NCBI GenBank assembly: GCA_964536865.1
Contig: CAZHYN010000001.1
Location: 97,824-161,823 of the forward strand
Origin: an uncultured Planctomycetia bacterium
GTDB taxonomy: Bacteria > Omnitrophota > Gorgyraeia > Duberdicusellales > 4484-171
Reading direction: 5' to 3'
Length of the DNA stretch: 64,000 bases
Positions 29,980-47,781 of this stretch are shown in pieces. The translations under genes and the position numbers were made by a program. Each line of letters begins with the position of its first letter. The stretch's first letter is position 1. The notes under the pieces were generated by a model. It saw only the letters and a program-made list of their open reading frames with translations. It searched no databases and was not told where the DNA came from.

Positions 29980-30693
29980 ATGAAAAATAAATCAAAACAA
30001 CGTAAAGTTTATGAGAAAGCAATAAAAAATTGGCCAAAGGACGAACGTCCCAGAGAGAAGCTTTTTAAATTAGGAGAACACAAACTTTCCAATACAGAAC
30101 TTTTAGCTATTTTGCTTCGCAGTGGTATAAAGGGAGAAAGTGCTGTTGACCTGGCAAGAAGAATCATTCAAAAATTCAGAACTTTCAGAAATATGAGCCA
30201 TACAGATATAAGAGACTGGAAAGAATTTAAAGGTTTAGGTCAGGCAAAAATAGCCCAGATTAAAGCAGCAATTGAAATAGGAAGAAGATTTAGAGAAGAG
30301 GAAATAAAAGAAAAACCTCCTCAGATAAAATCCTCCTGTGATGTTGTAGAAATTATGATGCCAAGAATGAGAGACTTAAAGAAAGAAGTATTTAAAATAC
30401 TCCTTCTAAATTCCAAAAACAGGATTCTTGATATTGTAGAAATAACTCAGGGCACAGTAAACCAGGCAAACCCCATAATAAGAGAAATATTTGAAAAATC
30501 TTTACAATCCTATGCTTCATCCATCATCTGCGTCCACAACCATCCTTCCGGAGATCCTAAACCCAGCAAAGAAGACGAAGAATTCACTAAAAGCTTAACT
30601 AAAGCAGGAGAAATTCTAAACATAAAAGTATTGGACCATATCATAATAGGAGATGATGAATACTATAGTTTTGCTGATGAAGGGACGATATAA
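29980..30693 (+). CDS. radC: RadC-like JAB/MPN domain protein (copy 1)
   Basis: HhH-like N-terminus (LSNTELLAILLRSG) and JAMM motif HNHPSGDPKPSKED. Confidence 0.8.
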   Translation: MKNKSKQRKVYEKAIKNWPKDERPREKLFKLGEHKLSNTELLAILLRSGIKGESAVDLARRIIQKFRTFRNMSHTDIRDWKEFKGLGQAKIAQIKAAIEIGRRFREEEIKEKPPQIKSSCDVVEIMMPRMRDLKKEVFKILLLNSKNRILDIVEITQGTVNQANPIIREIFEKSLQSYASSIICVHNHPSGDPKPSKEDEEFTKSLTKAGEILNIKVLDHIIIGDDEYYSFADEGTI

Positions 30694-30990
30694 TTATTTA
30701 GATTGAAGAGGTATAATAAGGAAAAATTTTTTAAGAGTTAGAAGGCCAATTTATTGAGAAAATTTGCTAAAGATATGGTTTTTATAAATGATTTAAGAGG
30801 AAAGTTAGAATATAAAAAATAAAAGAGAGGCATTACCGCGGGACTAACCCCTTTGGATAGCCTCTCATCGTGATTCAACTTAAGTATATAACATAACCTT
30901 ATGAATATCAAGGAGGTTTGTGAATTTTTATAGATTTGCTTAGAAATTTAACCAAAGAAATCATCGTAGCCATAGAAAATCAAGAATGAT

Positions 30991-32385
30991 ATGACCAAGA
31001 AAGAACTAAATATAATTTTAAAAGAAGGTGAAGGATACAAGATTGAATTTAAAGAGAAGGTAAGTAATATCGAGAAGGAGTTGGTAGCATTTGCCAATTC
31101 CTCTGGTGGCAGGATACTGCTTGGGGTAACCGACGATGGTAAGATTAAGGGAATAAATGTAACCAATAGACTGAAATCTATGATTCAAGATATAGCGAAT
31201 AATTGCCGTCCGCCAATTAAGATTTCTTTTGAAAGCATAGGTAACGTTCTTGCGGTTAATGTAAAAGAAGGAGAAGATAAACCCTATGAATGCACTTCTG
31301 GTTTTTACAAAAGAATGGGGCCAAATTCTCAGAAAATGACAAGAAACGAACTAATTAGATTCTTTAAAGCAGAGGGAAAAATCAGGTTTGACGAACTTAT
31401 AGAGCCAAAGTTTAGTTATCCTAAAGATTTTGACAAAGGGAAATTTAAAAGATTCTTGCAATTGGCCGATATCTCCAGAGTGGGAAGTGCAGAAAAATTA
31501 CTTGTTAGTTTAGGGGTGGCTGAGAAACAGGAAGGCAGACTCTACTTTAATAATGCCGGTATACTTTTCTTTGCTAAAGAACCACAGAGGTTTATTCCCT
31601 GGTCAGTGTATACTGTGGCATTATTTAAAGATGAAGCAGGAGTTGATATTATAGACAGAAAAGAGATAACTGGCAGTTTATTTGAGATTGTAGAGGAGGT
31701 AATGAAATTTGTAAGGCTTTATACAAAAGTTGCCTACCGTTTTACCGGCAGACCTCGCAGAGAAAATGTATATGAATACGCTTTTGATGCAATCAGGGAG
31801 GCAGTAATAAATTCAGTAATGCATAAATATTACTTTGAACATGGACACAACAATATCTTGAGATTCTTCCCTGACCGAATAAGGATTGAGAACTACTGGC
31901 AAAAGCCTGGCCATTTTGTTCTTGGCAAAACTGTCTTTAGAAGAAACCATATTATCGCTGATTTGTTTTCCAAAATTCATTTCGGCGAGAAAATGGGTAC
32001 AGGTTTTGAGAGAATAAGACAAATATGTAAAAAAGAAAAAGCCCCTTATCCTGATATTGAGTTTACCGAAAATTACTTCTATATAACTTTCAAGCAGAGC
32101 TATGAATACTTAAAACTTGCTGGGAAGCGTCCTCCTAAAGAAGGGTCTTTAACTACTACCCAGAAACAGAAAACTGTGGAGAAAACTGTGGAGAAAACTG
32201 TGGAGAAGATTCTGCATTTGATTAAAGAAAATCCCAAAATAACAATGAGAGAAATAGAACGGGTAACCGGTTTAAGCAGACGAGGCGTTGAATGGAATAT
32301 TGCCAAACTCAAAAAAGAAGGTCAAATCAAACGCATTGGTCCTGATAGAGGCGGGTATTGGCAAATTGTGGCAGAGAAAAAATAA
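30991..32385 (+). CDS. AlbA_2 (Schlafen-like divergent AAA) + HATPase_c_4 + wHTH protein
   Basis: AlbA_2 N-terminus (EGEGYKIEFKEKVSNIEKELVAFANSSGGRILLGV) and HATPase_c_4-like (AIREAVINSVMHKYY). In-frame 3x repeat TVEKTVEKTVEK before the C-terminal wHTH. Confidence 0.7.
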   Translation: MTKKELNIILKEGEGYKIEFKEKVSNIEKELVAFANSSGGRILLGVTDDGKIKGINVTNRLKSMIQDIANNCRPPIKISFESIGNVLAVNVKEGEDKPYECTSGFYKRMGPNSQKMTRNELIRFFKAEGKIRFDELIEPKFSYPKDFDKGKFKRFLQLADISRVGSAEKLLVSLGVAEKQEGRLYFNNAGILFFAKEPQRFIPWSVYTVALFKDEAGVDIIDRKEITGSLFEIVEEVMKFVRLYTKVAYRFTGRPRRENVYEYAFDAIREAVINSVMHKYYFEHGHNNILRFFPDRIRIENYWQKPGHFVLGKTVFRRNHIIADLFSKIHFGEKMGTGFERIRQICKKEKAPYPDIEFTENYFYITFKQSYEYLKLAGKRPPKEGSLTTTQKQKTVEKTVEKTVEKILHLIKENPKITMREIERVTGLSRRGVEWNIAKLKKEGQIKRIGPDRGGYWQIVAEKK

Positions 32386-32585
32386 TGAGCAGGCAAGTTT
32401 TATCCGATATAATTAAAGAATTCTCTCCCACTGTAGAAGAAATAGCCCAAGCCCTTAAACTTCATCCTTACACCATTCGCAGGCTTTGCCGTGAAGGTGA
32501 AATCCCAGCTTTTTCCGCCATACTTTATGGCGGATCCGCCTCTGGCGAAAAATTTGGCGCTTCCGTTTTGATGTTAAGGAGATAG
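32358..32585 (+). CDS. excisionase-family (Xis/HTH_17-like) DNA-binding protein
   Basis: 75 aa. EIAQALKLHPYTIRRLCREGEIPAF; paralog of 26305..26484. Confidence 0.55.
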   Translation: MANCGREKIMSRQVLSDIIKEFSPTVEEIAQALKLHPYTIRRLCREGEIPAFSAILYGGSASGEKFGASVLMLRR

Positions 32586-32590
32586 AAGAA

Positions 32591-33307
32591 GTGGAAAAGA
32601 AATCAAGGCACTACAAAGTTTATGAGAAAGCAATAAAGAACTGGCCTGAAGATGAACGTCCCAGAGAGAAGCTTTTTAAATTAGGAGAACACAAACTTTC
32701 CAATACTGAACTTTTAGCTATCTTACTCCGTAGTGGTATAAAAGGAGAAAGTGCAATTGACTTGGCAAGGAGAATCATTCAAAAATTCAAAACCTTCAGG
32801 AATATGAGTCATACCAATTTAAATGATTGGAAAGAATTTAAAGGTTTAGGTCAGGCAAAAATAGCCCAGATTAAAGCAGCAATTGAAATAGGAAGAAGAT
32901 TTAGAGAAGAGGAAATAAAAGAAAAACCTCCTCAGATAAAATCCTCCTGTGATGTTGTAGAAATTATGATGCCAAGAATGAGAGACTTAAAGAAAGAAGT
33001 ATTTAAAATACTCCTTCTAAATTCCAAAAACAGGATTCTTGATATTGTAGAAATAACTCAGGGCACAGTAAACCAGGCAAACCCCATAATAAGAGAAATA
33101 TTTGAAAAATCTTTACAATCCTATGCTTCATCCATCATCTGCGTCCACAACCATCCTTCCGGAGATCCTAAACCCAGCAAAGAAGACGAAGAATTCACTA
33201 AAAGCTTAACTAAAGCAGGAGAAATTCTAAACATAAAAGTATTGGACCATATCATAATAGGAGATAATAAATATTACAGTTTTGCTGATGAGGGAAAAAT
33301 AAGGTGA
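32591..33307 (+). CDS. radC: RadC-like JAB/MPN domain protein (copy 2)
   Basis: Near-identical to 29980..30693 after the first ~10 codons. HNHPSGDP motif. Confidence 0.8.
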   Translation: MEKKSRHYKVYEKAIKNWPEDERPREKLFKLGEHKLSNTELLAILLRSGIKGESAIDLARRIIQKFKTFRNMSHTNLNDWKEFKGLGQAKIAQIKAAIEIGRRFREEEIKEKPPQIKSSCDVVEIMMPRMRDLKKEVFKILLLNSKNRILDIVEITQGTVNQANPIIREIFEKSLQSYASSIICVHNHPSGDPKPSKEDEEFTKSLTKAGEILNIKVLDHIIIGDNKYYSFADEGKIR

Positions 33308-33580: not shown

Positions 33581-33608
33581 TTGACAATAATAAAATAACT
33601 TATAAAAT
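33581..33608 (+). promoter_or_regulatory. putative sigma70-like promoter upstream of hsdM
   Basis: TTGACA at 33581..33586, 16-nt AT-rich spacer, TAAAAT at 33603..33608. Confidence 0.35.
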
Positions 33609-33647: not shown

Positions 33648-35435
33648 ATGATGCCCAATTGGCTTAATAGAAGATATGAAATTTTATGGGGAGCATTTCA
33701 ATCTTCTCCTTTCTGTGTCGAAGATGCTACACGCGTGCTTAAAGAAAAATTTGATGATAGTGAGGAACAGATTAATGTTGTACTCTCGGAACTAAGAAAA
33801 GAAGGTATGCTTAAAGTAGAATTTGATCCCACTGACGCAAGGAAAAGAGTCTATCAACTTATAAGTAGAGAGCAAATAATTTCTGAGAGATTCTCCATTA
33901 CAAATAAGCAATTAACAAGAGGAGATCTTGAAGGGCTTCTCAAGGCAGCAGCAGATCTCATAAGAACAAGGGTCGATTATACTTTTATCCTCGTTCTTCT
34001 TTTCTACAAAAGAATTAGTGACAAATGGAAGATGGAATTTGAGAATGCATATAAAGAAGCACTTGCTGATGGATTGAGTGAAGAAGAAGCAAAGAAGGAG
34101 GCAAGAAATGCCATATATCATGACTTTGATATTCCTGAGGAGTTTCTCTGGGAGAATATAAGGAAGGAACCAACCAGATTACCTGAAAATTTTTCCAAAG
34201 CAATGAAAGTTTTGGCAGAAAGGAACTCCGGACTTAAGGATGTATTTGAGAATGTAGATTTTGTTCAATTTACCACCAATAGAGAAAATGCTGAAGTTTT
34301 AAGACAATTAGTTGAACTTTTCAGTGCTAAAGCGTTACACCATGTATCCCCTGATATTCTTGGAGATGCTTACGAGTGGATATTAAGGTACTTTGCCCCT
34401 CAGAAAGCTAAGGAAGGAGAAGTCTACACTCCAAAAGAGGTTATCAATCTCATTATTGAAATGGTCGATCCAAAACCAGGTGAAAGTGTATATGACCCAG
34501 CCTGTGGTTCGGGTGGTATGCTTATCAGCGCTTATAAGCATGTTGAAAATAATCTTGGCAGGAACGAAGCAGATAAGCTCTTTCTCTTTGGGCAGGAATA
34601 CAATCACAAGACTCTTGCTCTTGCTAAAATGAATCTTTACATCCATGATATCAGGAATGGTCAGCTTGCTCTGGGAGACACATTGCTTTATCCCAAATTT
34701 AAGGAAGGTAACCTGCCTGCGTCCGCAGGACAGTCAGGTAAGTTAAAGAAATTCGATGTTGTTATAGCCAATCCCCCGTGGAATCAAGATGGATATAGTG
34801 AGGAGACTCTTAAAAAAGGTGAGTTCTGGCGGGAGAGATTCAACTTCGGGTTCACACCAAAACAATCAGCAGACTGGGCATGGATAGAGCACATGTTAGC
34901 TTCAGCAAAGGAGAGAGGTGGCAGAGTGGGGGTTGTTATAGATAATGGTTGCCTTTTTAGAGGCGGGAAGGAGAAGGCGATAAGAACAAGTATCGTCAAT
35001 GCTGACCTGATAGAGGCTGTTATTCTTCTCCCTGAAAAACTCTTTTATAATACTGGAGCACCAGGAGCAGTAATTGTTCTTAATAAAAATAAACCAAAGG
35101 CAAGGAAAGGAAAAGTCTTATTCATAAATGCAAGCAATGAATACGAGCAACATCCAAGTGTTCGGAAACTCAACCGTTTGGGAGATGAGCATATAGAGAA
35201 GATAGTCAAAGCATATAAAGAGTTTAGAGACTCAGGTGGATTTTCAAAGGTTGTAGAGATTGAGAAGATAAAAGAGAACGGCTATAACCTGAATGTCACG
35301 CTATATGTATTCCCGGAAGAGGAGATTGAGGAGATAGATGTAACTAAAGAGTGGGAAGGACTGCGTAAGGTAGAAAGGGAACTTGTGGAGGTTGAAAAGA
35401 AGATTGAGGGATATCTAAAAGAATTAAAATACTGA
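33648..35435 (+). CDS. hsdM: type I restriction-modification system methyltransferase subunit
   Basis: 595 aa. HsdM_N motif LLKAAADLIR, SAM motif DPACGSGGML and catalytic NPPW (VVIANPPWNQ). Confidence 0.9.
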   Translation: MMPNWLNRRYEILWGAFQSSPFCVEDATRVLKEKFDDSEEQINVVLSELRKEGMLKVEFDPTDARKRVYQLISREQIISERFSITNKQLTRGDLEGLLKAAADLIRTRVDYTFILVLLFYKRISDKWKMEFENAYKEALADGLSEEEAKKEARNAIYHDFDIPEEFLWENIRKEPTRLPENFSKAMKVLAERNSGLKDVFENVDFVQFTTNRENAEVLRQLVELFSAKALHHVSPDILGDAYEWILRYFAPQKAKEGEVYTPKEVINLIIEMVDPKPGESVYDPACGSGGMLISAYKHVENNLGRNEADKLFLFGQEYNHKTLALAKMNLYIHDIRNGQLALGDTLLYPKFKEGNLPASAGQSGKLKKFDVVIANPPWNQDGYSEETLKKGEFWRERFNFGFTPKQSADWAWIEHMLASAKERGGRVGVVIDNGCLFRGGKEKAIRTSIVNADLIEAVILLPEKLFYNTGAPGAVIVLNKNKPKARKGKVLFINASNEYEQHPSVRKLNRLGDEHIEKIVKAYKEFRDSGGFSKVVEIEKIKENGYNLNVTLYVFPEEEIEEIDVTKEWEGLRKVERELVEVEKKIEGYLKELKY

Positions 35436-35443: not shown

Positions 35444-36976
35444 ATGCAAACTAATACTTTAAAAGAAATAATCAATAAATGGAGAGGTAAAGAAGGAGAA
35501 CGTATTGAATATAAACTCTCTGCTTCTACTTTATCAAAAGACATATGGGAAACCGTATCTGCTTTTTCAAACGAAGGCGGCGGTGTAATTCTACTTGGGT
35601 ATAAAAAAATCGGTAAGAAATATGTTCCCGTAGGAGTTAAAGATCCCTCAAAAATTCTTGATGATTTTACTTCTACTGTTAGTCAAAAATTCAATTTTTG
35701 TCCTGTTGTCTCTGCAAAGATTGTTGAAGACAGTGGTAAACCCACAATAGTTATAGAAGTAAAAGAAGCTCCACGGTATCAAAAGCCCATTTATATAAAA
35801 GATGCAGGTCCTCTTAAAGGAGGATTTAAAAGGGTTGGTGCTACAGACATTAGGCTTACAGACGAGGATGTGTATAGATATTATCTGGAAAGAATGGGAG
35901 CTCCTGATGCTCAACCAATAAATGGAACTACATTAGATGATATTGATCCTGCTACTCTTACAGCGTTTCGGAACTTAAGGAGAATTATAAATCCCAATGC
36001 TCCGGAATTAAGGTTTGATGATAAAGAACTTCTAAAGGCATACAACTTACTATCCAAAGACTCCGAAACATTAACAACTGCGGGCTTACTTCTTTTTGGA
36101 AGAGAAGAGATAGTGAAAAGACATTTTCCAGCGGTTCGGCTTGATGTCATAAGGGTAAAAGGTATCGAATGGGGCAAAGACAGAGACCCCTTTCTCTCCA
36201 GAGATTTAACAGGAAATCTCATAACTCTGCGTTCATTAGCGATAGATTTTCTGGATAGGTTCTTCCTTGTTCCTTTCCATACGGATAAAAGAGGTGAGAG
36301 GATAGAAGAAAATGCTCATCGCAAAGCCCTGAGAGAAGCACTTACCAATCTTTTAATGCACCAGAACTATTTTCACCGCAGTCCTGCACAGATAAGAATT
36401 TATAACGATAGGATTGAATTTTATAACCCTGGCTATTCTTTGAAGGATCCATCTTTATTTGATTCTCCTGGTTCTGAGTTAAGGAATCCTTCAATTGCGG
36501 CGGTTTTTTATGATATTGGTTGGGCAGAGGCGAAAGGGACAGGGCTTAAAACCACTATTGAATCACTTAAGAGTGAGGGTTACCCTATCCCTGAGTATTT
36601 AAATGACATCAAACATGACACTTTTACTTTGGTGCTTCCCCATCCAATAGTAGAAGTCACCGAACAAGTCACCGAACAAGTCACCGAACAAGTTGCGAAC
36701 ATGATGGACCGGAGGGCTATGACTCTGGAATTCTGTAAGGAGCCGAGGTCTTTAAAAGAAATAATGCAGTTTCTTGGGCTTAAACACCGACCCAATTTTA
36801 TAGAAAAGGTGTTGAATCCTCTTCTTGAAGCAGGGTTGTTAAAAAGAACGATCCCAGACAGGCCAAGAAGCAGGTTTCAAAAATATGTGGCTGTGAAGAA
36901 GGAGGCACATTATGGCAAAAAACAAGCACGATCAAATAGCAGAGAGGTTGGCAAAGAAGTTTGGGGTGGAGTATAA
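35444..36976 (+). CDS. AlbA_2 + HATPase_c_4 + wHTH protein, embedded in the RM operon
   Basis: AlbA_2-like N-terminus (IEYKLS...VSAFSNEGGGVILLGY) and HATPase_c_4-like (REALTNLLMHQNYF). In-frame 3x VTEQ repeat. Starts 9 nt after the hsdM stop. Confidence 0.7.
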   Translation: MQTNTLKEIINKWRGKEGERIEYKLSASTLSKDIWETVSAFSNEGGGVILLGYKKIGKKYVPVGVKDPSKILDDFTSTVSQKFNFCPVVSAKIVEDSGKPTIVIEVKEAPRYQKPIYIKDAGPLKGGFKRVGATDIRLTDEDVYRYYLERMGAPDAQPINGTTLDDIDPATLTAFRNLRRIINPNAPELRFDDKELLKAYNLLSKDSETLTTAGLLLFGREEIVKRHFPAVRLDVIRVKGIEWGKDRDPFLSRDLTGNLITLRSLAIDFLDRFFLVPFHTDKRGERIEENAHRKALREALTNLLMHQNYFHRSPAQIRIYNDRIEFYNPGYSLKDPSLFDSPGSELRNPSIAAVFYDIGWAEAKGTGLKTTIESLKSEGYPIPEYLNDIKHDTFTLVLPHPIVEVTEQVTEQVTEQVANMMDRRAMTLEFCKEPRSLKEIMQFLGLKHRPNFIEKVLNPLLEAGLLKRTIPDRPRSRFQKYVAVKKEAHYGKKQARSNSREVGKEVWGGV

Positions 36977-37208
36977 GAAAAGTAAAGGTATTGATATTGT
37001 AACCAAAGAGAAAGTTATCGAAGTTGAAACTAAGAAAGGTTCTTTATACCAAGGAATAAATCAGATAAAAAGAGCTTCTAAAGCAAGGTATGTTGCAGTT
37101 AATAAATTAAATATTAACAATGCTTTAAAGGCTACGAAAGGAACCGGTATAGGAATTATGGGACCTACTGGAAGGATAATAAAGAGAGCGAGAAGAAATA
37201 AGAAATAA
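36912..37208 (+). CDS. minimal PD-(D/E)XK fold protein (YraN/UPF0102-like) with basic tail
   Basis: 98 aa. GIDIVTKEKVIEVETKK fits the hhDhh...(D/E)hK pattern. Lys/Arg-rich C-terminus. Overlaps the upstream gene by 65 nt; the next gene starts 3 nt after its stop. Confidence 0.35.
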   Translation: MAKNKHDQIAERLAKKFGVEYKKSKGIDIVTKEKVIEVETKKGSLYQGINQIKRASKARYVAVNKLNINNALKATKGTGIGIMGPTGRIIKRARRNKK

Positions 37209-37210
37209 AA

Positions 37211-39031
37211 TTGCTGGGGCACATGTGGGAAGATAAAGTTTTAAAAGTTGCTTTTTCTATTCATTCAAATCCTGGCATATATGCATTGTTGTTGGGTTCT
37301 GGAACATCAAGAGAAGCAGGTATTCCTACAGGATGGGAAATAGTAGGAGATTTAATTAAAAAACTTGCCTTTGTTCAGACCAAAGAGTCATTATCAGATC
37401 CCTATAAATGGTATGAAGAAAAATTTGGAGAGAAACCAGATTATTCAAAAATTTTAGAAAAGTTAGCAAGTACTCCTATAGAGAGGCAGTCGCTTTTAAG
37501 AAGATATTTTGAGCCTACAGAGGAAGAAAAAGAACAAAGAATTAAAATCCCTACAGATACTCATAGGAGTATAGCTAAATTAGTTAAATATGGATATGTG
37601 AAGGTTATTGTCACTACTAATTTTGATCGTTTATTAGAGAAAGCCTTAGGAGAAAAAGGAATAACACCAGTTGTTATCAGTACCGATGATGAATTAGAAG
37701 GAGCTATTCCTTATGTTCATTCCAATTGCACTTTGATAAAAGTTAATGGAGATTATTTAGATACACGTTTAAGAAATACGATGGGTGAATTGGAAACCTA
37801 TTCAGAGAAATTGACTTCATTGCTCGAAGAAATTTTTGAAAGATTTGGATTAATTGTGTGTGGATGGTCGGCGAAATGGGATATTGCTTTAAGAGATACC
37901 ATTTTAAGAATAAAAAATAGAAGATTCCCTATGTATTGGCTTTCTAAAGAAGAGGTTACAGAGGAAGCGAAAAGGGTTATTTCACATAGGCAGGCAGATG
38001 TTATAAATATCGAAAGTGCCGATAAGTTTTTTGTTGAACTTTTAGAGAAGATCGAATCTTTACGAGAGTTCGAAAGCCCACATCCTTTATCTTACAAAGA
38101 GGCTGCTATAACTGTTAAACGTTATTTGTCAGATGAAAAGAAAAATAGGATTAAGCTTTATGAGCTTATCGATGAAGAAACAGAAAAAGTATGGAAAATT
38201 TTAGCTTCAGAATATTTTAATATTCAAAAGTTAAAACTTGAACGTAGTTTGATTCAGAAAAGAATACATGAGTATGAAGAATTGGTAAAACCCCTTATGA
38301 ATATGCTAATGCCCATTGCTTATTTTAGCAAGGAAGAAGATAATATGCGCTTGATTTCCAGAGCAATAGAACGAATCGCGCAACCGCATCAGCGAGCTGG
38401 CGTTGTAGCATTGATACAATTTCAACATTACCCTGCTTTACTTTTGCTATATGCAGCTGGTCTTGTAAGTTTAGCTAATGAAAATTGGAAGGTTTTAAAA
38501 GCAGCTTTATTGGAACCACAATATCAAGCTGATAATGAGAAACAACCAATTTTAGAATATATCGAGCCATATTATATTTTAAGAAGATTAGGATTTAATA
38601 ATAATGCAAAAAATAGAATTCTATCTGAAAATGACTATTTATTTTTTCTATTATCTGATTTTGTTAACGAATATATACCTGACAAAAATAAATATGAAGA
38701 AATATTTGATATTTTTGAATTTTTAATGGCAGTAACTTATGTTTATCAAGTAGTTTTTGTCTATGGGAGTGAAGAAGATAAGAAAACATTTAAAGAATCT
38801 GAGTATTTACCTACTAAGTTGATTGTTGGACGATTTGCACGGAAATACTTTAGTTGGCATCCCTCTAGAGATTTTGAAAAGTCTCCAATTGCTAGATTTA
38901 TAAACGAGGGGATAAAACAAGGTAATGAATGGGGGTTATTGAAAGAAGGATTCTTCGGAGGCTTTATAGAAACGTTTAAATTGTGCTGTAAAAAATATAT
39001 AAACACCTTGAGAAAGGTAAGAATCTCTTAA
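37211..39031 (+). CDS. SIR2-like (SIR2_2) domain protein with ~350-aa C-terminal domain of unknown function
   Basis: N-terminal SIR2-family motifs (LLGSGTSREAGIPTGWEIV, VTTNFDRLLE, HSNCTLIKVNGDY). No recognisable C-terminal domain. Confidence 0.7.
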   Translation: MLGHMWEDKVLKVAFSIHSNPGIYALLLGSGTSREAGIPTGWEIVGDLIKKLAFVQTKESLSDPYKWYEEKFGEKPDYSKILEKLASTPIERQSLLRRYFEPTEEEKEQRIKIPTDTHRSIAKLVKYGYVKVIVTTNFDRLLEKALGEKGITPVVISTDDELEGAIPYVHSNCTLIKVNGDYLDTRLRNTMGELETYSEKLTSLLEEIFERFGLIVCGWSAKWDIALRDTILRIKNRRFPMYWLSKEEVTEEAKRVISHRQADVINIESADKFFVELLEKIESLREFESPHPLSYKEAAITVKRYLSDEKKNRIKLYELIDEETEKVWKILASEYFNIQKLKLERSLIQKRIHEYEELVKPLMNMLMPIAYFSKEEDNMRLISRAIERIAQPHQRAGVVALIQFQHYPALLLLYAAGLVSLANENWKVLKAALLEPQYQADNEKQPILEYIEPYYILRRLGFNNNAKNRILSENDYLFFLLSDFVNEYIPDKNKYEEIFDIFEFLMAVTYVYQVVFVYGSEEDKKTFKESEYLPTKLIVGRFARKYFSWHPSRDFEKSPIARFINEGIKQGNEWGLLKEGFFGGFIETFKLCCKKYINTLRKVRIS

Positions 39032-39034: not shown

Positions 39035-40354
39035 ATGGGAGAAGAATTTAAACAAACAGAGATTGGTAAGATACCGAAGGAGTGGGAGGTGGTGAGGTTG
39101 GGGGAGGTGGTATCAGTATTGAGAAATGGGCTAACTACTAAGCAAAATAAAGAAAAGATAGGTTATCCAGTTACCAGAATTGAGACGATTTCGGACGAGA
39201 CAATTGATCAAAGTAAGTTTGGGTATCTAACAAGAGTAAGCGAAAAAGAAATCAAAGAGTATGGGTTGGTTAAAGACGACATATTGTTCAGCCACATAAA
39301 TAGCTTAGCGCACATAGGAAAGACAGCAATCTACAGAGGAATTCCTAGAACTCTGTTGCATGGGATGAATCTGTTACTCCTGCGACCAAATAAGCAGAAA
39401 GTTAATCCGGTGTTTTTCCTGATGCTATTAAGATTTCTCAGAATGAAGAAGATTTTTGCAAACATGTCTAAAAAAGCTGTAAATCAAGCCTCGATCAATC
39501 AAACAGAACTTAAGAAACTAAAACTACCCCTCCCTCCACTTCCAGAACAACAAAAAATCGCTGAGATTCTTTCAACTATGGATGAAGCTATTGAAAAAGT
39601 AGATTCTGCCATAGCAAGAACCGAACGGCTCAAAAAGGGCTTGATGCAGGAACTTCTGAATGGGAGTCTGAGAGTCGGAGAGTCAATGAGTCTAAGAGTC
39701 AGAGAGTTAGGAGAGTTTAAGGATACAGAAATCGGCAGGATACCGAAGGAGTGGGAGGTTGTGAGGTTAAAGGAAGTAGTAGATTTGCTTAGAAATGGTT
39801 TAGTTACAAAGCAAAACAAGGATGAAAAAGGTATACCTGTAACACGCATAGAAACGATTTCAGACGAGAGAATTGATACGCAAAAAATTGGCTATATTGA
39901 GAAAATATCAGAAGAGGAAATTTCAGAGTACAAACTTCAAAAAGGAGATATACTTTTCAGCCATATCAATAGTCTTGCACATATAGGAAAAACAGCAATA
40001 TATGATGGCGAACCTTCCTTATTGCTACACGGAATGAACCTGCTCCTTTTGAGACCACAGAGAACAACCATTGAGCCTTTTTACCTTTTATATTTATTAA
40101 AGTATTACAGAGCCAAGGCAATTTTCAGACACATGTCGAAAAAGGCAGTTAATCAAGCATCGATTAACCAGACAGAATTAGGTAGGCTTAGAATTCCATT
40201 TCCCCCTCTCCCAGAACAACAAAAAATTGCTGAAATCCTGTCAACTGTTGATAAAAGGCTGGAGCTATTGAGAGAGAAAAAAGAAAAATTGGAAAGAATA
40301 AAGAAAGGATTAATGAATGACCTGCTAACAGGGAAAAAGAGAGTAGTGTTATGA
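39035..40354 (+). CDS. hsdS: type I RM specificity subunit with two target-recognition domains
   Basis: Internally duplicated halves (EFKQTEIGKIPKEWEVVRLGEV vs EFKDTEIGRIPKEWEVVRLKEV). Conserved repeats LPPLPEQQKIAEILST present twice. Confidence 0.85.
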   Translation: MGEEFKQTEIGKIPKEWEVVRLGEVVSVLRNGLTTKQNKEKIGYPVTRIETISDETIDQSKFGYLTRVSEKEIKEYGLVKDDILFSHINSLAHIGKTAIYRGIPRTLLHGMNLLLLRPNKQKVNPVFFLMLLRFLRMKKIFANMSKKAVNQASINQTELKKLKLPLPPLPEQQKIAEILSTMDEAIEKVDSAIARTERLKKGLMQELLNGSLRVGESMSLRVRELGEFKDTEIGRIPKEWEVVRLKEVVDLLRNGLVTKQNKDEKGIPVTRIETISDERIDTQKIGYIEKISEEEISEYKLQKGDILFSHINSLAHIGKTAIYDGEPSLLLHGMNLLLLRPQRTTIEPFYLLYLLKYYRAKAIFRHMSKKAVNQASINQTELGRLRIPFPPLPEQQKIAEILSTVDKRLELLREKKEKLERIKKGLMNDLLTGKKRVVL

Positions 40355-40733
40355 GTAGACGGCATACAGTAAACAGTAGACAGGGAAAGGCAGAGAGATT
40401 TGAGCAGTTAGAAGTATGGAAAAAGGCACATGAGTTGGTTCTTAAAATAACAAAATTACAAAAGATTTTCCTTCAGAGGAAAAATTTGGATTAGTTTCAC
40501 AAATGCGACGTGCTGCTGTATCAATCCCTGCTAATATCGCTGAGGGATTTAAAAAGTATGGCTTAAAAGATAAGAGGAACTTTTATAACATAGCACAAGG
40601 CTCTCTTGAGGAATTAAGATACTATTTAATTTTATCAAAGGAACTTGGATATTGTGAAAATACAGATGAATTTTATAAAGCAATAGATACAATTGGGAAA
40701 ATGTTATATGGCCTTATTAAAAGTATACAGTAG
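40351..40733 (+). pseudogene. four-helix-bundle (23S rRNA IVS family) protein gene, frameshifted
   Basis: ATG overlaps the hsdS stop (ATGA). Frame A encodes MSRR...FEQLEVWKKAHELVLKITK. Frame C continues ITKDFPSEEKFGLVSQMRRAAVSIPANIAEG... Shift occurs in the A-rich tract near 40465. Confidence 0.55.
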
Positions 40734-40835: not shown

Positions 40836-43800
40836 ATGGCCTTTGATGAAAAACGCCTTGTAGAAGACTATATTATTAAACAACTTGAAGAGAAAGGATG
40901 GAGGTTTGTCCCTGCTAATGCCCTTGAAAGGGACAGCTATGAAGAACCTTTACTTATTCCAAATCTCAGAAGGGCGTTGGAAAGGATAAATAAAGAATCT
41001 GGTATTGGGGATGAGGAAATAAACAAGGCTTTAAATGAACTTAAACTTACCGGTACAGGTATAGAGGGAGCTAAACGCATTCTTAACTTCTATAAGTTTG
41101 GTATTCCAGTGAAGTTTGAGAAAGAGAAAGTGGTAAAGTATATCCAGCTTTTTGATTTTCAAGACATTGAAAACAACGAATTCATAGTTTCAAGGCAGGT
41201 TTATTTTTATGGTAGGGAAGCCATAAGAACGGACATTATACTCTATGTAAACGGTATTCCTCTGGTAAATATCGAGTGTAAAAACCCGACAAGTTTGACT
41301 GAAAGCTGGCATACCGCTTACAGGCAGATTAAGGATTATGAAAGGCTTGTACCCGAGCTTTATAAATATATTCAGATAGGAATAGGAGCTGAGAGTATTG
41401 CAAGATATTTCCCCATCGTTCCTTGGCAAGATGAACCTGTGATACACGAATGGCGTGATGAAAAGAAGGATTCAATTGACTCTACGGTTGAGATGCTATC
41501 AAGAAATATCTTGCTTGATATTATTAAAAACTACCTCTTTTATAGAGAATGGAGAGGGGAAGCAACTAAGGTCATAACCAGATATATGCAGTATAGAGCT
41601 GCTAATAAGATGGTAGATAGGGTCATCAAAAATCTCAAAGGGGAGGAGAAGAAAAATAAAGGCCTTGTATGGCATTGGCAGGGAAGCGGAAAGACTCTTA
41701 CCATGCTCTTTGCTGCCAACAAACTTTATTACGCAAAGGAACTCGAGAATCCCACGATATTTTTTATTGTCGATAGGATTGAGCTCGAAGACCAGCTTTA
41801 CAAGGAATTCTATTCTTTAGATATTGTCAAACCGGAGATTATAGGTTCAGTGGATGAACTCAAGGGAATTCTTCAATTTGATGATTATCGGGGTAAGCGA
41901 GGAGTATTTATAACACTCATTCATAAATTCAGGCCTGAGGAACTTAAAGAACTTTATAAAGAACTCGATGAAGTCACAAGATATAAGGAAACAATTATGA
42001 ACAGAAAAAATGTTATAGCCTTCATTGATGAGGGTCATAGAACCCAATATGGGCTGTTGGCTGCTCAAATGAAGAGTATTCTTAAAAGTGCTTTTTTCTT
42101 TGCCCTTACTGGAACACCTATATCAAAAAAGGGTAGAGATACCTACCTGGAATTTAGCTATCCACCAGACGAGGTTTATCTTGATAGGTATTTCATAACA
42201 GATTCCATAAGAGATGGCTTTACAGTAAAGATTGCCTATCAGCCAAGGCTTGAGAAAGAAGTCCATCTGAGGAAAGATTTACTTAAAGCATTTTTAGAGG
42301 CAGAAGAGGAAGAACTGCCTGAGGAGATAAGAGATGATATAAAAGGCAGAATTAAAAAGAGGTTGAATGCTATAAAGGTAGTGCTTGAAAATCCACAGCG
42401 TATAAAGGTAATAGCAGAGGATATAGCAAAACATTTTAAGGAGCATATTGACGGGAAGTTTAAAGCCATGGTGGTAGCAGGTAGTAGAAAGGCCTGCCAT
42501 ATCTATAAACAAGAACTTGATAGACACCTGCCACCAGAATATTCAGAGATAGTGATGACATATAGAAGAGACGATGAACAGCCCCTTGTGAAGAGGATTG
42601 CAGAGACACGAGAAAGATATGGAAATAGAGATATATCTGATATAAGAAAGGATATAGTAGAGAAGTTTAAAGAAGAAGCATTCCCTAAAATACTTATTGT
42701 CACTGATATGCTTCTTACAGGATTTGATGCTCCTATTTTGCAAGTTATGTATCTTGATAAACTACTTAAAGAACATAGACTTCTCCAAGCAGTGGCGAGG
42801 ACGAATAGACCATATAAAGATTTAAAAGAAGGAGGCCTTATAATTGATTATGTAGGAATACTCAAGGAATTTAGGAAAGCCCTTGAGATGTATAATGAAG
42901 AGGATATTAGACTGGCACTTACAAGCTTCGACGGGATCAGGGAAGAATTTGCCTTACTCCTCAGAGAGATTCTTGAAATACTTAAAGAAGTATCCAGAAA
43001 TTATGAGAGGGAAGTACTCCTTAAAGCTTGTGAAATACTCACCACTGAGAAGACAAAAGAAAAGGAATTCATTGAGAAATATAAAAGTTTAAGAAAGGCC
43101 TTTGAGCTCCTTGGTCCTGACGAAATTAAACTTGAATATTTCGAAGATTATAAATGGATTTCAGCGATTTATACATACTACATGAGAACAGTACTACAGA
43201 AACCACCTGTTGAAGAATATGTAGAGAGGTATTACGAGAAAACTGTAAGATTCATACATAAGGCTACAGAGATAAAAAAGTTGGAAACAGACCTGCCAAT
43301 AGTAGCTTTTGACGAAGGATACCTTAAGGCGCTTGAGGAGAGGGTTAAAAGCAGGAAGGAGAAAGCTGCTAACATTCTTTTTACACTAAATAGATTAGTT
43401 CTCGTTGAAAGACACAGAAACCCTATTTATGAGTCTCTCGTAGAAAAAGTTGAAAGACTGCTTGAGCTCTGGAAGGAGAAAACAAAGGATTATGAAAGGA
43501 TATACAGAGAAGGTGTAATAGCAATCAATGAAATAAAGTCTCTTTCTGAAAGACAAAAATCATTGGGCTTTTCTGACCTTGAATATTCGCTACTGCTTGC
43601 TCTTGAAGAAAAATTTGGTAAAGAGGAAGAATTGGTAAGTGAGGTAAGAGATATATCAGAAAGGCTTAAAAACTATATGTTTCCTGGTTGGTTTAATCAG
43701 CCTACCGTAGAAAAAAATGTAGAAAGAGAAGTAAGGAGATTTGTTAGGGGATTTAAGGGAAAGTATAGCATGACTTTGGAAGAAATGGACCAACTTTATA

Positions 43801-43841
43801 AGAAACTTATTGAAAGAGTAAAGAACTATGGGACTTCATAA
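40836..43841 (+). CDS. hsdR: type I RM restriction subunit (helicase/endonuclease)
   Basis: 1001 aa. N-terminal PD-(D/E)XK region, SF2 helicase motifs (HWQGSGKT, FIDEGHRTQYG, TGTP). Confidence 0.9.
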   Translation: MAFDEKRLVEDYIIKQLEEKGWRFVPANALERDSYEEPLLIPNLRRALERINKESGIGDEEINKALNELKLTGTGIEGAKRILNFYKFGIPVKFEKEKVVKYIQLFDFQDIENNEFIVSRQVYFYGREAIRTDIILYVNGIPLVNIECKNPTSLTESWHTAYRQIKDYERLVPELYKYIQIGIGAESIARYFPIVPWQDEPVIHEWRDEKKDSIDSTVEMLSRNILLDIIKNYLFYREWRGEATKVITRYMQYRAANKMVDRVIKNLKGEEKKNKGLVWHWQGSGKTLTMLFAANKLYYAKELENPTIFFIVDRIELEDQLYKEFYSLDIVKPEIIGSVDELKGILQFDDYRGKRGVFITLIHKFRPEELKELYKELDEVTRYKETIMNRKNVIAFIDEGHRTQYGLLAAQMKSILKSAFFFALTGTPISKKGRDTYLEFSYPPDEVYLDRYFITDSIRDGFTVKIAYQPRLEKEVHLRKDLLKAFLEAEEEELPEEIRDDIKGRIKKRLNAIKVVLENPQRIKVIAEDIAKHFKEHIDGKFKAMVVAGSRKACHIYKQELDRHLPPEYSEIVMTYRRDDEQPLVKRIAETRERYGNRDISDIRKDIVEKFKEEAFPKILIVTDMLLTGFDAPILQVMYLDKLLKEHRLLQAVARTNRPYKDLKEGGLIIDYVGILKEFRKALEMYNEEDIRLALTSFDGIREEFALLLREILEILKEVSRNYEREVLLKACEILTTEKTKEKEFIEKYKSLRKAFELLGPDEIKLEYFEDYKWISAIYTYYMRTVLQKPPVEEYVERYYEKTVRFIHKATEIKKLETDLPIVAFDEGYLKALEERVKSRKEKAANILFTLNRLVLVERHRNPIYESLVEKVERLLELWKEKTKDYERIYREGVIAINEIKSLSERQKSLGFSDLEYSLLLALEEKFGKEEELVSEVRDISERLKNYMFPGWFNQPTVEKNVEREVRRFVRGFKGKYSMTLEEMDQLYKKLIERVKNYGTS

Positions 43842-44376
43842 TATCCCATATATAGTTTCCTATAGAGCTGTGAAGTATCCAAGATTAGAGTTTAAAACAG
43901 GAAAGCTTCTTATTGTTCTTCCTTTTGGAGCTAAGCCTGATATTCTTTTGGATAAGCATAAACATTGGATTATTAAGAAATCTGAATTTATAAAAAGATG
44001 CTTACAAAGTGCAAAGAATAAAAAATTAATCACAAGATCCGATGAAAAATTTAGGAAACTTATCGATTATTTTGTGAGAAAAACATCTAAAGATTTAAAT
44101 GTTAAATTGAATCGCATCTATTTTAGAAAAATGAAGACAAAATGGGCATCCTTGAGTTCTGCGAAAAATCTAACAATTAACTCACTTGTGAAACATTTGC
44201 CAGAGTATTTGATAAGATATGTGATTTTCCATGAACTGGTTCATATCATAGAGAAAAGACATAATGAGAAATTCTGGGAGATAGTCTCACACAGGTTTAA
44301 AAATTATCGAAAAATGGAAAGAGAAATGTTCATATATTGGTTTCTGGTTTCTAAAAAAGGAGGAGATCATGGCTGA
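43828..44376 (+). CDS. DUF45/YgjP-like zinc metallopeptidase (M48-like, WLM fold)
   Basis: HExxH...E motif (VIFHELVHIIEKRHNEKFWE). Gene family commonly found downstream of hsdR. Confidence 0.65.
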   Translation: MGLHNIPYIVSYRAVKYPRLEFKTGKLLIVLPFGAKPDILLDKHKHWIIKKSEFIKRCLQSAKNKKLITRSDEKFRKLIDYFVRKTSKDLNVKLNRIYFRKMKTKWASLSSAKNLTINSLVKHLPEYLIRYVIFHELVHIIEKRHNEKFWEIVSHRFKNYRKMEREMFIYWFLVSKKGGDHG

Positions 44377-44659
44377 ATTCACAGTTAGTGAAGTAATTGA
44401 TGGTGATACTTTTAAAGTTAAGGAAGGTTGGAAATGGAATGAAAGGAAGGGCGATACTGTTCGTCCTACAGGTTATGATGCTCCTGAGAAAGGAGAGCCG
44501 GGATATGAAGAAGCAAAAGAGAAACTTAGAAGGCTAATTTTGAATGAAAAAGTAAAAATTGAAAATCCTCAAACCATAGATGACTGGGGCAGATTAGTGG
44601 CAGATGTTTATTATAAAGGGAAAAATCTTGCTGACTACTTTCCTGAATATAAAGTTTGA
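44369..44659 (+). CDS. thermonuclease (SNase-like) small nuclease
   Basis: VIDGDTFKV...TVRPTGYDAPEKGE matches the staphylococcal-nuclease fold signature. Confidence 0.6.
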   Translation: MAEFTVSEVIDGDTFKVKEGWKWNERKGDTVRPTGYDAPEKGEPGYEEAKEKLRRLILNEKVKIENPQTIDDWGRLVADVYYKGKNLADYFPEYKV

Positions 44660-45543: not shown

Positions 45544-45666
45544 ATAAAGATATCTTACTTTTGCTCTCCACACACCCTGCCACCGATTTGTCTATATCTT
45601 TTAAAACTTTATAAATATTTACACTACATTTTTAACTTTATGGTATAATGTAGTGTAAGGAGGGTT

Positions 45667-47700: not shown

Positions 47701-47723
47701 GAGACGAAGTAAATCAGGGTGCA

Positions 47724-47766
47724 GTCCCGCCTCTTTCATTTTGAAAGGAGCGGGATTTTTTATTTT
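47724..47766 (+). terminator. riboswitch expression-platform terminator hairpin
   Basis: TCCCGC-ctctttcattttgaaaggag-GCGGGA followed by TTTTTTATTTT. RBS GAAAGGAGG and ATG lie downstream. Confidence 0.6.
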
Positions 47767-47781
47767 GAAAGGAGGTTAAGT

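What the first reader, a model, noticed from the sequence alone, without database searches (positions are those of the whole stretch)
35444..39031. Three-gene AlbA_2-HATPase / mini PD-(D/E)XK / SIR2 module inserted between hsdM and hsdS of a type I RM operon
Three tightly packed genes are wedged between hsdM (33648..35435) and hsdS (39035..40354), breaking the contiguous M-S arrangement. The genes are an AlbA_2-HATPase_c_4-wHTH protein, a 98-aa YraN-like PD-(D/E)XK fold protein with a basic tail, and a 606-aa SIR2_2 protein with a ~350-aa uncharacterised C-terminal domain. Gaps are 9 nt, a -65 nt overlap, 3 nt and 4 nt. The block then continues on the same strand into hsdS, a 4HB gene, hsdR, a DUF45 peptidase and an SNase-like gene. 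SIR2 domains act as NAD+-depleting effectors in several anti-phage systems (Thoeris ThsA, DSR, SIR2-HerA, SPARSA). A SIR2 protein of this size with an unknown C-terminal domain, operonically fused to a type I RM system and a sensor-like AlbA_2 ATP-binding protein, is a plausible undescribed abortive-infection or RM-linked defense module.
Basis: partly seen in the sequence, partly recalled or inferred. Interest (0 to 1): 0.75.

Follow-up and report, generated by a model that had tools for sequence, protein, structure and literature searches.

The report
Defence genes embedded in type I RM operon
Three unrelated accessory genes, one of them a sirtuin-type candidate anti-phage protein already listed in a public catalogue, sit inside a restriction-modification operon; they are separate passengers in a known hotspot for defence genes, not a new three-gene system.

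Summary
Between hsdM and hsdS lie an AlbA_2/HATPase_c_4/wHTH gene, a 98-aa gene and a SIR2 gene.

- **SIR2 protein.** It matches PADLOC model PDC-S65 end to end (E 3e-194). PDC-S65 is a single-gene 'phage defence candidate' whose series was defined by embedding in BREX, DISARM or type I RM operons. It is catalogued but untested.
- **AlbA_2 protein.** It belongs to COG2865, a family recurrently embedded in such operons.
- **The trio is not co-conserved.** In 80 species-level SIR2 loci, profile searches find the 98-aa gene 0 times and an AlbA_2/HATPase_c_4 gene 3 times. About a quarter of the loci are RM-linked.
- **Catalytic site.** The window's SIR2 has Asn where the catalytic His normally sits. 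17 of 118 relatives share this, so NADase activity is uncertain.
- **C-terminal domain.** It is all-alpha and has no detectable relatives.

The least ordinary part is the 98-aa protein. It is a confidently modelled restriction-endonuclease-fold protein from a small, unannotated family with highly conserved sequences. In 84 other loci it lies directly upstream of very different defence genes, including TIR, PIN-like, PDC-S19 and PD-Lambda-4_A-like genes. Near-identical alleles carry unrelated partners.

Verdict: a new instance of a known phenomenon, with one unexplained small gene.

The parts
33581..33608 (+). Best sigma-70-like promoter match, just upstream of hsdM. Possible operon promoter.
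   Evidence: 11 of 12 matches. No + strand terminator-like site between 33200 and 45200. Weak evidence, because the site counts do not exceed the shuffles.
33648..35435 (+). hsdM, type I RM methyltransferase
   Evidence: Pfam N6_Mtase E 2e-115 and HsdM_N; PADLOC MTase_I E 1e-105
35444..36976 (+). geneA: AlbA_2 (Schlafen-like) / HATPase_c_4 / winged-helix protein of the COG2865 type, 510 aa. The linker carries a VTEQ x3 repeat (36654-36693).
   Evidence: Pfam. PHROG 12156 E 5e-39. The family is listed as FAM_00002, embedded in RM/BREX/DISARM. A 26%-identical paralogue lies at 30991-32385. Repeat.
36912..37208 (+). g98: 98-aa restriction-endonuclease-fold (PD-(D/E)XK-like) protein with a basic C-terminal tail. 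The family has no annotation.
37223..39031 (+). SIR2 protein, 602 aa, member of PADLOC PDC-S65 (the ORF extends back to TTG 37211)
   Evidence: PDLC05061 E 3e-194, residues 4-601 against profile positions 11-587 of 592. More than 3,800 homologues, those listed about 520-680 aa. AF2 pLDDT 84.
37223..38077 (+). SIR2 (NAD-binding Rossmann) domain, residues about 1-285. Contains GSGxS (25-29) and TTNFD (131-135, Asn133).
37745..37747 (+). Asn175 codon, at the position of the canonical catalytic His (KVNGDY in place of KLHGDY)
   Evidence: The aligned residue in GsSir2 is H186 of the HGD loop, and H186A abolishes NADase activity (PMC10781750).
38093..39025 (+). All-alpha C-terminal domain, residues about 291-601, with invariant FDxFE and GFF motifs. 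No detectable relatives. Inferred to be a sensor or regulatory domain.
39035..40354 (+). hsdS specificity subunit. The start lies 3 nt after the SIR2 stop.
   Evidence: Pfam Methylase_S E 5e-58, two stretches. hsdS is the commonest immediate neighbour of SIR2 homologues: 11 of 80 loci, most of them overlapping by a few nt.
40503..40733 (+). N-terminally truncated four-helix-bundle (23S rRNA IVP) gene remnant
   Evidence: Pfam and TIGR02436 match only profile positions 31-109. In-frame stops lie upstream.
40836..43841 (+). hsdR restriction subunit
   Evidence: Pfam HSDR_N, SWI2_SNF2 and T1R_D3-like; PADLOC REase_I E 9e-111
43828..44376 (+). YgjP-like (DUF45) metallopeptidase, a usual hsdR companion
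   Evidence: Pfam E 5e-25. The same position after hsdR is seen in L011, L087, L120 and L155.
44369..44659 (+). Small SNase-like protein
   Evidence: Pfam SNase E 5e-6, 27.3 bits against a cut-off of 21

Best explanation
The hsdM-hsdS interval of an otherwise complete type I RM operon (hsdM-hsdS-hsdR-YgjP) is a slot into which independent defence-type genes have been inserted. This is the known 'embedding' phenomenon. It holds three separately distributed passengers.

1. **A COG2865-type AlbA_2/HATPase_c_4/wHTH protein.**
2. **A 98-aa restriction-endonuclease-fold protein (g98).** In other genomes this gene is a constant neighbour of a variable defence-gene position.
3. **A self-contained single-gene SIR2 protein of the PDC-S65 family.**

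For the SIR2 protein the most likely mechanism is inferred by analogy with DSR2, ThsA and SPARSA. The all-alpha C-terminal domain would keep the N-terminal SIR2 domain inactive until it senses an infection cue. SIR2 would then consume NAD+ and abort the infection.

Shown: domain identities, family membership, gene order, lack of co-conservation.
Inferred: co-transcription with the RM genes, the NADase activity, the sensor role of the C-terminal domain, and any phage phenotype.
For: - **Family membership.** The SIR2 protein matches PDC-S65 over its full length. The PDC series was defined by embedding in BREX, DISARM or type I RM operons.
- **Size and spread of the SIR2 family.** It has more than 3,800 members, those listed about 520-680 aa. 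499 species representatives of bacteria and archaea encode a relative.
- **RM linkage.** 19-20 of 80 loci carry hsdM, hsdS or hsdR within 10 kb.
- **No other partner.** Immediate neighbours recur only as hsdS (11), hsdM (4) and hsdR (3), and 119 of 156 are singletons.
- **Trio not conserved.** The g98 HMM hits 0 of 80 loci and the AlbA_2/HATPase_c_4 HMM hits 3 of 80. Close SIR2 relatives occur in other contexts.
- **g98 context.** It lies upstream of 28 different partner clusters in 56 loci. Gaps are mostly -8 to +30 nt.
- **g98 partners.** They include ThsB-like TIR, PIN-like, ClpP-like, KAP NTPase, PDC-S19 and PD-Lambda-4_A-like proteins.
- **Allele swapping.** g98 alleles 92-98% identical carry unrelated partners, while the two SIR2-linked alleles share only 66% identity.
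- **AlbA_2 family.** It is recorded as embedded family FAM_00002.
- **Operon signals.** A promoter-like site lies before hsdM and there is no internal terminator-like site.
Against: - The window's SIR2 has Asn175 at the canonical catalytic His. The equivalent H186A mutation abolishes NADase activity in GsSir2, so the predicted activity may be altered or lost.
- No member of PDC-S65 has been tested. A literature search for 'PDC-S65' found nothing.
- L087 repeats the order HATPase_c_4 protein, g98, SIR2 inside a type I RM operon. Some local functional linkage therefore cannot be excluded.
- Many loci are short metagenomic contigs, so the counts of RM linkage are lower bounds.
- The tight spacing of g98 and its downstream gene could reflect a real two-gene unit.
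Confidence: 0.7

Rival explanations
1. g98 and the gene after it form a two-gene unit. The small nuclease-fold protein would be a constant component (regulator, adaptor or co-effector) that works with interchangeable effectors. Here the effector is SIR2. Elsewhere it is TIR, PIN-like, ClpP-like, KAP NTPase, PDC-S19 and others.
For: - g98 has the same strand as, and very short gaps to, the downstream gene in most of 84 loci. Gaps of -8 to +30 nt predominate.
- g98 is often the first gene after an oppositely oriented gene.
- Most annotated partners are defence-type proteins.
- Rare fusions join the g98 domain to a PRTase-CE domain, and to an HTH_3/Peptidase_M78 protein.
- The invariant acidic, Lys and Gln residues suggest a working active site.
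Against: - None of 80 PDC-S65 loci has g98, so SIR2 does not need it.
- Partners such as PDC-S19 are catalogued as single-gene candidates.
- Near-identical g98 alleles pair with unrelated partners, and the two SIR2-linked alleles share only 66% identity. There is no co-variation.
- In L155 g98 is followed directly by hsdS, and in about 8 loci with enough downstream sequence (L104, L106, L108, L113, L135, L143, L152) no same-strand gene follows closely.
Confidence: 0.2
2. The three genes are one integrated system. The AlbA_2/HATPase_c_4 protein would sense, g98 would cut nucleic acid, and SIR2 would deplete NAD+.
For: - The three genes are tightly packed or overlapping on one strand.
- L087 shows hsdM, a DUF4062-HATPase_c_4 gene, g100, then SIR2.
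- AlbA2-g98 adjacency recurs in L094, L098, L144 and L145.
Against: - g98 occurs in 0 of 80 SIR2 loci and AlbA_2/HATPase_c_4 in 3 of 80.
- SIR2 follows g98 in only 1 of 84 other g98 loci.
- The closest SIR2 relatives lack both genes.
- AlbA2-g98 pairs are followed by unrelated genes: a PD-Lambda-4_A-like gene in L098 and a KAP NTPase in L145.
- The recurrences fit three families that each favour the same hsdM-proximal slot.
Confidence: 0.08
3. The SIR2 protein is a PrrC-like guard of its host RM enzyme. The Hsd complex would hold it inactive, and phage anti-restriction proteins that disable the RM system would release it.
For: - The gene is repeatedly embedded next to hsdS, often with overlapping stop and start codons.
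- About a quarter of loci are RM-linked.
- There is a precedent in PrrC-EcoprrI, discussed in the embedding paper.
- SIR2/HerA pairs inserted between RM genes protect Streptococcus thermophilus and lactococcal hosts (PMC11514479).
Against: - About 75% of family members have no type I RM gene within 10 kb. One sits beside a plasmid-type Rep gene. The RM enzyme therefore cannot be an obligatory partner for the family.
- No interaction data exist.
Confidence: 0.15
4. This particular SIR2 copy is not an NAD+ hydrolase. The His-to-Asn change would make it inactive, an NAD+-binding sensor, or an enzyme with different chemistry.
For: - Asn175 aligns with the catalytic His of GsSir2 (H186) and with the KLHGD motif of SeThsA.
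- H186A abolishes NADase activity in GsSir2.
Against: - Asn is the only alternative to His at this position. It occurs in 17 of 118 homologues and 17 of 79 loci from many phyla, in full-length and otherwise well-conserved proteins. This suggests a tolerated functional variant.
- The SPARSA study proposes that the His acts through a hydrogen bond that positions a loop, not as a direct base. Asn might supply such a bond; this is inference.
- An invariant His166 lies nearby.
Confidence: 0.2

Closest known systems
PADLOC PDC-S65 (single-gene phage defence candidate; PDC series from Payne et al., bioRxiv 10.1101/2024.01.29.577857)
   Same: The profile matches end to end (E 3e-194). The architecture is the same: SIR2_2 plus a helical C-terminal domain. 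The genomic situation is the same: embedded in a type I RM operon.
   Different: Nothing substantive. This copy carries Asn at the catalytic His position and comes from an uncultured bacterium. The row assigning PDC-S65 was not in the stored, truncated supplementary table, so its origin by embedding is inferred from the PDC naming scheme.
DSR2 / DSR1 (defence-associated sirtuins)
   Same: A single polypeptide with an N-terminal SIR2 NADase domain and a large helical C-terminal region. Foldseek probability is 1.0 to DSR2. The expected logic is that a C-terminal sensor activates NAD+ depletion.
   Different: This protein is about 600 aa, against about 1,000-1,260 aa. The NCBIfam Dsr1 model scores 16 bits against a cut-off of 1,400. 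No DSR model appears among the PADLOC hits. The C-terminal domain shows no detectable similarity to DSR2. The catalytic His is replaced by Asn.
SPARSA Sir2-APAZ (GsSir2) with short pAgo
   Same: It is the closest solved relative of the SIR2 domain by sequence (E 4e-14) and the top Foldseek hit. It shares the TTNFD and (H/N)GD(Y/F) motifs.
   Different: No Argonaute gene is nearby. The C-terminal domain is all-alpha and gave no sequence match to the APAZ region of GsSir2. The match covers residues 113-261 only.
Thoeris ThsA and SIR2-HerA (Nezha / GAO_19)
   Different: No SLOG domain, no ThsB gene and no HerA gene. PADLOC ThsA hits are weak and partial (E 4.5e-5).
PrrC-EcoprrI (effector embedded between hsd genes)
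   Same: An effector gene sits inside a type I RM operon next to hsdS. A back-up defence role is conceivable.
   Different: PrrC is an ABC-ATPase anticodon nuclease found almost only in RM operons. PDC-S65 is a SIR2 protein found mostly outside them.
Minimal PD-(D/E)XK nucleases (3dnx/SPO1766-like, NucS and restriction-enzyme catalytic cores, HamA, Tox-REase-5), compared with g98
   Different: No sequence-family membership, and Pfam UPF0102/YraN is not matched. The Lys of the (D/E)xK motif is not invariant at a fixed position. The protein is only 98 aa. Its context, a constant neighbour of variable defence genes, is unusual.

Membership tests
PADLOC PDC-S65 | Full-length match to the family HMM (PDLC05061 / PDLC05060) | tested here: met
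   E 3.2e-194, residues 4-601 against profile positions 11-587 of 592. Second model E 2.6e-119.
PADLOC PDC-S65 | Single-gene unit with no obligatory partner | tested here: met
   119 of 156 immediate neighbours in 80 loci are singletons, and only hsd genes recur.
PADLOC PDC-S65 | Anti-phage activity | not testable with these tools
   The PDC systems are predictions. No paper mentions PDC-S65.
SIR2-type defence NADases (ThsA, DSR, SPARSA, SIR2-HerA) | SIR2 Rossmann fold with the NAD-binding motifs GxGxS and TxNxD | tested here: met
SIR2-type defence NADases (ThsA, DSR, SPARSA, SIR2-HerA) | Catalytic Asn-His dyad | tested here: not met
   Asn133 is present. The His position is Asn175 (KVNGDY). 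Among homologues it is His in 101 and Asn in 17 of 118.
SIR2-type defence NADases (ThsA, DSR, SPARSA, SIR2-HerA) | NAD+ hydrolysis on phage infection | not testable with these tools
   Needs biochemistry or an infection assay.
DSR1 | NCBIfam NF041818 equivalog score of at least 1,400 bits | tested here: not met
   16.4 bits.
Thoeris | ThsA with a SLOG/STALD domain plus a ThsB TIR gene | tested here: not met
   Only weak partial ThsA hits (E 4.5e-5, residues 112-183). The C-terminal domain is all-alpha with no Pfam hit. No TIR gene lies in the block.
SPARSA | SIR2-APAZ protein encoded next to a short pAgo | tested here: not met
   No Argonaute among the neighbouring ORFs. Similarity to GsSir2 is confined to the SIR2 domain.
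Type I restriction-modification system | hsdM, hsdS and hsdR genes in one operon | tested here: met
   Pfam and PADLOC hits for all three.
COG2865 (AlbA_2 / HATPase_c_4 / wHTH) | The three domains in this order | tested here: met
   SLFN_AlbA_2 at 17-137, HATPase_c_4 at 314-397, Fic-like_C winged helix at 433-481, all above the cut-offs.
   No Pfam or NCBIfam family at E up to 0.01, apart from one spurious NCBIfam hit.
PD-(D/E)XK (restriction-endonuclease-like) superfamily, for the 98-aa protein | The alpha-beta-beta-beta-alpha-beta core fold | tested here: met
PD-(D/E)XK (restriction-endonuclease-like) superfamily, for the 98-aa protein | Catalytic D...(D/E)xK motif | tested here: inconclusive
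   D28, E37 and E39 are invariant. The Lys after E39 shifts between positions 41 and 42 and is not invariant. Q51 and K57 on the next helix are invariant.

The most novel reading that the evidence does not exclude
The 98-aa restriction-endonuclease-fold gene defines an uncatalogued, highly conserved family (64-91% identity among the 120 closest listed relatives). The named hits come from MAGs of several candidate phyla. The gene would act as the constant element of a modular defence locus. It marks, and perhaps services, a slot in which unrelated effectors are exchanged, often inside type I RM operons. The effectors seen include SIR2, TIR, PIN-like, ClpP-like, KAP NTPase, PDC-S19 and PD-Lambda-4_A-like proteins. 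It could be a shared co-factor or regulator of these effectors. It could instead be a small nuclease that promotes cassette exchange at that site.
Probability: 0.25. Interest if true: 0.65.

Novelty: new member of a known kind. Interest (0 to 1): 0.35.

Why it matters
- **As given, the finding adds little.** It is one more example of defence genes embedded in a type I RM operon, and the SIR2 gene is already in PADLOC as an untested candidate.
- **Catalytic His/Asn dimorphism.** PDC-S65 is very widespread and carries either His or Asn at the catalytic position. An experimental test of one His-type and one Asn-type member would show whether this large SIR2 family depletes NAD+, and whether the canonical His is needed.
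- **The 98-aa nuclease-fold family.** It is absent from Pfam, NCBIfam, PHROGs and PADLOC, yet it sits next to many different known or candidate defence genes. It could serve as a cheap genomic marker for finding new defence genes in uncultured lineages. It might also reveal how cassettes are swapped inside RM operons.

Tried and rejected
- **Literature search for 'PDC-S65'.** No paper was found. The stored supplementary Table S8 of the embedding preprint is truncated and does not show the S65 row.
- **Repeats flanking the inserted genes, as signs of a mobile cassette.** Only short chance-level repeats, the hsdS internal repeat and the VTEQ coding repeat were found.
- **Promoter and terminator scan.** Site counts did not exceed the shuffles, so it gives only weak support for a single operon.
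- **YraN/UPF0102 label for the 98-aa protein.** Rejected at sequence level.
- **80-aa gene call for the small gene.** Rejected in favour of the 98-aa start.
- **DSR1, Thoeris, SPARSA or SIR2-HerA membership.** Rejected; see the membership tests.
- **DUF4062 paper.** It was checked for a link to HATPase_c_4 or RM operons, and it mentions neither.

Full report
**1. Observation**

The ORF list reproduces every coordinate in the finding. Pfam identifies the following:
- hsdM: N6_Mtase E 2e-115 and HsdM_N.
- geneA, 510 aa: SLFN_AlbA_2 (17-137), HATPase_c_4 (314-397) and a Fic-like_C winged helix (433-481).
- The 606-aa ORF: SIR2_2, 37.5 bits against a cut-off of 24.5.
- Downstream: hsdS, a 23S-rRNA-IVP four-helix-bundle fragment, hsdR, a YgjP/DUF45 peptidase and a small SNase-like protein.

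The best promoter-like site of the region lies just upstream of hsdM. No terminator-like site interrupts the + strand up to 45200. This is weak evidence, because site counts do not exceed the shuffles.

Two corrections apply.
- The SIR2 protein most likely starts at ATG 37223 (602 aa). The homologues and the identical database entry P0001 start there.
- The small gene really starts at ATG 36912 (98 aa) and overlaps geneA by 65 nt. AAGGAGG lies 7 nt upstream, and conservation with homologues runs from residue 1.

**2. The SIR2 protein**

PADLOC gives a full-length match to PDC-S65 (PDLC05061, E 3e-194). [quoted passage not shown] They are predictions, not tested systems (bioRxiv 10.1101/2024.01.29.577857). 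No paper in the library mentions PDC-S65.

The family is large and widely spread.
- More than 3,800 proteins match at E up to 1e-5. Those listed are about 520-680 aa, mostly close to 590 aa.
- 499 of the scanned species-representative genomes of bacteria and archaea encode a relative.

The AlphaFold model (pLDDT 84) shows an N-terminal SIR2 domain (about 1-285), a short low-confidence linker, and an all-alpha C-terminal domain (291-601).
- The closest solved relative by sequence is GsSir2 of SPARSA (E 4e-14, SIR2 domain only).

**3. A catalytic-site anomaly**

The family motif KLHGDY aligns with KIHGDF of GsSir2 and KLHGD of SeThsA. In GsSir2 this His is H186 of the N142/H186 dyad, and H186A abolishes NADase activity (PMC10781750). 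The window protein reads KVNGDY, with Asn175 at codon 37745-37747.

Across the family the position holds only His or Asn: 101 against 17 of 118 proteins, and 62 against 17 of 79 loci from many phyla. The other NAD-binding motifs are intact. Asn therefore looks like a tolerated variant, not decay, but NADase activity cannot be assumed for this copy.

**4. Is the trio a module?**

I fetched 80 species-representative loci of the SIR2 family with 10-kb flanks.
- tBLASTn finds hsdM, hsdS or hsdR in 19-20 of them. It finds an AlbA_2-like gene in 2 and the 98-aa gene in none.
- Profile HMMs give the 98-aa gene in 0 of 80 and AlbA_2/HATPase_c_4 in 3 of 80.
- Clustering of immediate neighbours shows only hsdS (11, most of them overlapping by a few nt), hsdM (4) and hsdR (3) as recurrent. 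119 of 156 neighbours are singletons.

The closest relatives (51-59% identity) give the same picture.
- P0003 lies next to a Rep_1 gene.
- P0006 stands alone.
- P0007 lies in an hsdM-NTase-SIR2-hsdS arrangement.
- P0002 follows an AlbA_2-like gene, a HATPase_c_3 gene and an unrelated 156-aa gene.
- Only P0005 (L087) repeats a similar order: hsdM, a DUF4062-HATPase_c_4 gene, a 100-aa homologue of the small gene, then SIR2.

The SIR2 gene therefore behaves as a self-contained unit that is repeatedly inserted into type I RM operons. This agrees with its single-gene classification.

**5. The AlbA_2 protein**

It belongs to COG2865. In the embedding preprint's tables this family is FAM_00002, and the listed cassettes containing it were rejected as candidates. 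A second, 26%-identical copy (30991-32385) lies just upstream between two radC copies.

In L087 the AlbA_2 domain is replaced by DUF4062, which a 2026 preprint reports to be a TIR-like NADase. This suggests that the N-terminal domain of this architecture is an exchangeable effector. That is inference only; the paper does not discuss this architecture.

**6. The 98-aa protein (g98)**

It has no match in Pfam, NCBIfam, PHROGs or PADLOC. The family is small: 176 clusters at 90% identity and 187 clusters at 50% identity among 1.84 billion proteins. Almost all members are 94-100 aa. The 120 closest listed relatives share 64-91% identity with the window protein. The named ones come from MAGs assigned to Atribacteria, WOR-3, Omnitrophica, Parcubacteria, Acidobacteriota and Syntrophaceae.

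Its context is the unexpected part. I examined 84 further loci.
- **Upstream.** g98 follows hsdM directly, or follows an AlbA_2, ORF6N or Fic gene, or is the first gene after an oppositely oriented gene.
- **Downstream.** It is usually followed within -8 to +30 nt by a same-strand gene.
- **Diversity of the downstream gene.** There are 28 sequence clusters among 56 complete partners.
- **Kinds of partner.** ClpP-like, two ThsB-type TIR groups, DUF4145, PIN-like, a 1,267-aa AAA protein, a KAP NTPase, DUF3644, DUF6119, DUF2130 and Hypoth_Ymh.
- **PADLOC matches among the partners.** PD-Lambda-4_A (full length), PDC-S19 (full length), PD-T7-4, ThsB, PD-Lambda-3_B and QatA/PifA.
- **SIR2 as partner.** This occurs only in the window and in L087.
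- **No co-variation.** g98 alleles 92-98% identical carry unrelated partners, for example L126 (ClpP-like) against L147 (PIN-like), and L098 against L099. The two SIR2-linked alleles share only 66% identity, below the family's between-partner mean of 74%.
- **Rare fusions.** The g98 domain is joined to a PRTase-CE domain in one protein and to an HTH_3/Peptidase_M78 protein in another.

So g98 is not a specific partner of SIR2. It is a constant gene beside a variable defence-gene position. What it does there remains unexplained.

**7. Mechanism**

Shown: a complete type I RM operon with three independently distributed genes in its hsdM-hsdS interval.

Inferred:
- Co-transcription with the RM genes.
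- SIR2-mediated NAD+ depletion triggered through the C-terminal domain, by analogy with DSR2, ThsA and SPARSA.
- A back-up role when restriction fails. Precedents are PrrC-EcoprrI and SIR2/HerA pairs inserted between RM genes in Streptococcus thermophilus (PMC11514479).

Rivals considered: a g98-plus-effector two-gene unit, the integrated trio, a PrrC-like guard, and a non-NADase Asn variant. Each is listed with its evidence in the Rival explanations section.

**8. Comparison and novelty**

The SIR2 gene is a member of PDC-S65. It is not DSR1 (16 bits against a cut-off of 1,400). It is not Thoeris, SPARSA or SIR2-HerA, because the partner genes and domains are absent. The locus is a new instance of a described phenomenon.

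The three-gene module is not a real unit, and 'undescribed' does not hold for the SIR2 gene. The only elements without precedent in the libraries searched are the g98 family with its variable-neighbour pattern, and the His/Asn dimorphism of PDC-S65.

**9. Verdict**

Interest is 0.35. The finding is ordinary as stated. It leaves a modest, testable lead in the 98-aa gene.

Noticed in passing
window 36912-37208; loci L087, L090, L092, L094, L095-L174: The 98-aa nuclease-fold gene belongs to an unannotated, highly conserved family. In 84 other loci it lies directly upstream of very different defence-type genes, and near-identical alleles carry unrelated partners.
   Followed up: yes
window 37745-37747 (Asn175 of the SIR2 protein): The PDC-S65 family has either His or Asn, and nothing else, at the canonical catalytic His position. 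About 15-21% of members have Asn, including this copy.
   Followed up: partly
window 29980-33307: Two radC genes (29980-30693 and 32591-33307, whose first 300 nt are 88% identical) flank a second AlbA_2/HATPase_c_4/HTH_24 gene (30991-32385) and a small HTH_17/AbiEi_4-like gene (32358-32585). This looks like a duplication or an insertion next to the RM operon.
   Followed up: partly
window 40356-40733: The four-helix-bundle (23S rRNA IVP) gene between hsdS and hsdR is an N-terminally truncated remnant. In-frame stop codons interrupt the upstream part.
   Followed up: partly
window 36654-36693; L084 854-2209: geneA carries three perfect 12-nt tandem repeats that encode VTEQVTEQVTEQ in the linker before the winged helix. 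An AlbA_2 homologue in L084 has KVTEKVTEKVTE at the equivalent place.
   Followed up: no
L087 8073-9551: At the position of geneA, this related operon encodes DUF4062 fused to HATPase_c_4. DUF4062 was recently reported to be a TIR-like NADase. The N-terminal domain of this architecture may therefore be a swappable effector.
   Followed up: partly
window 39426-39586 and 40095-40255: A 161-nt internal direct repeat (71% identical) lies within hsdS. It may correspond to the two-stretch (duplicated) organisation that Pfam Methylase_S reports for this protein.
   Followed up: no
window 47458-47671: A cobalamin riboswitch (107 bits) lies immediately upstream of the anaerobic ribonucleotide reductase genes nrdD and nrdG (47719-50513). 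It marks the end of the defence island and indicates a bacterial host.
   Followed up: no
window 45132-46322: After the RM operon come a small ArsR/MarR-type HTH gene (45132-45422) and an overlapping pair (45667-45975, recorded as DUF6788 in the contig look-up, and 45972-46322, NTP_transf_8-like). The pair resembles a toxin-antitoxin pair.
   Followed up: no
L175 2531-6870: A 54%-identical SIR2 homologue lies near a Rep_1/REP_ORF2-G2P gene, two genes away on the opposite strand. The SIR2 gene may therefore also travel on small plasmids or other mobile elements.
   Followed up: no
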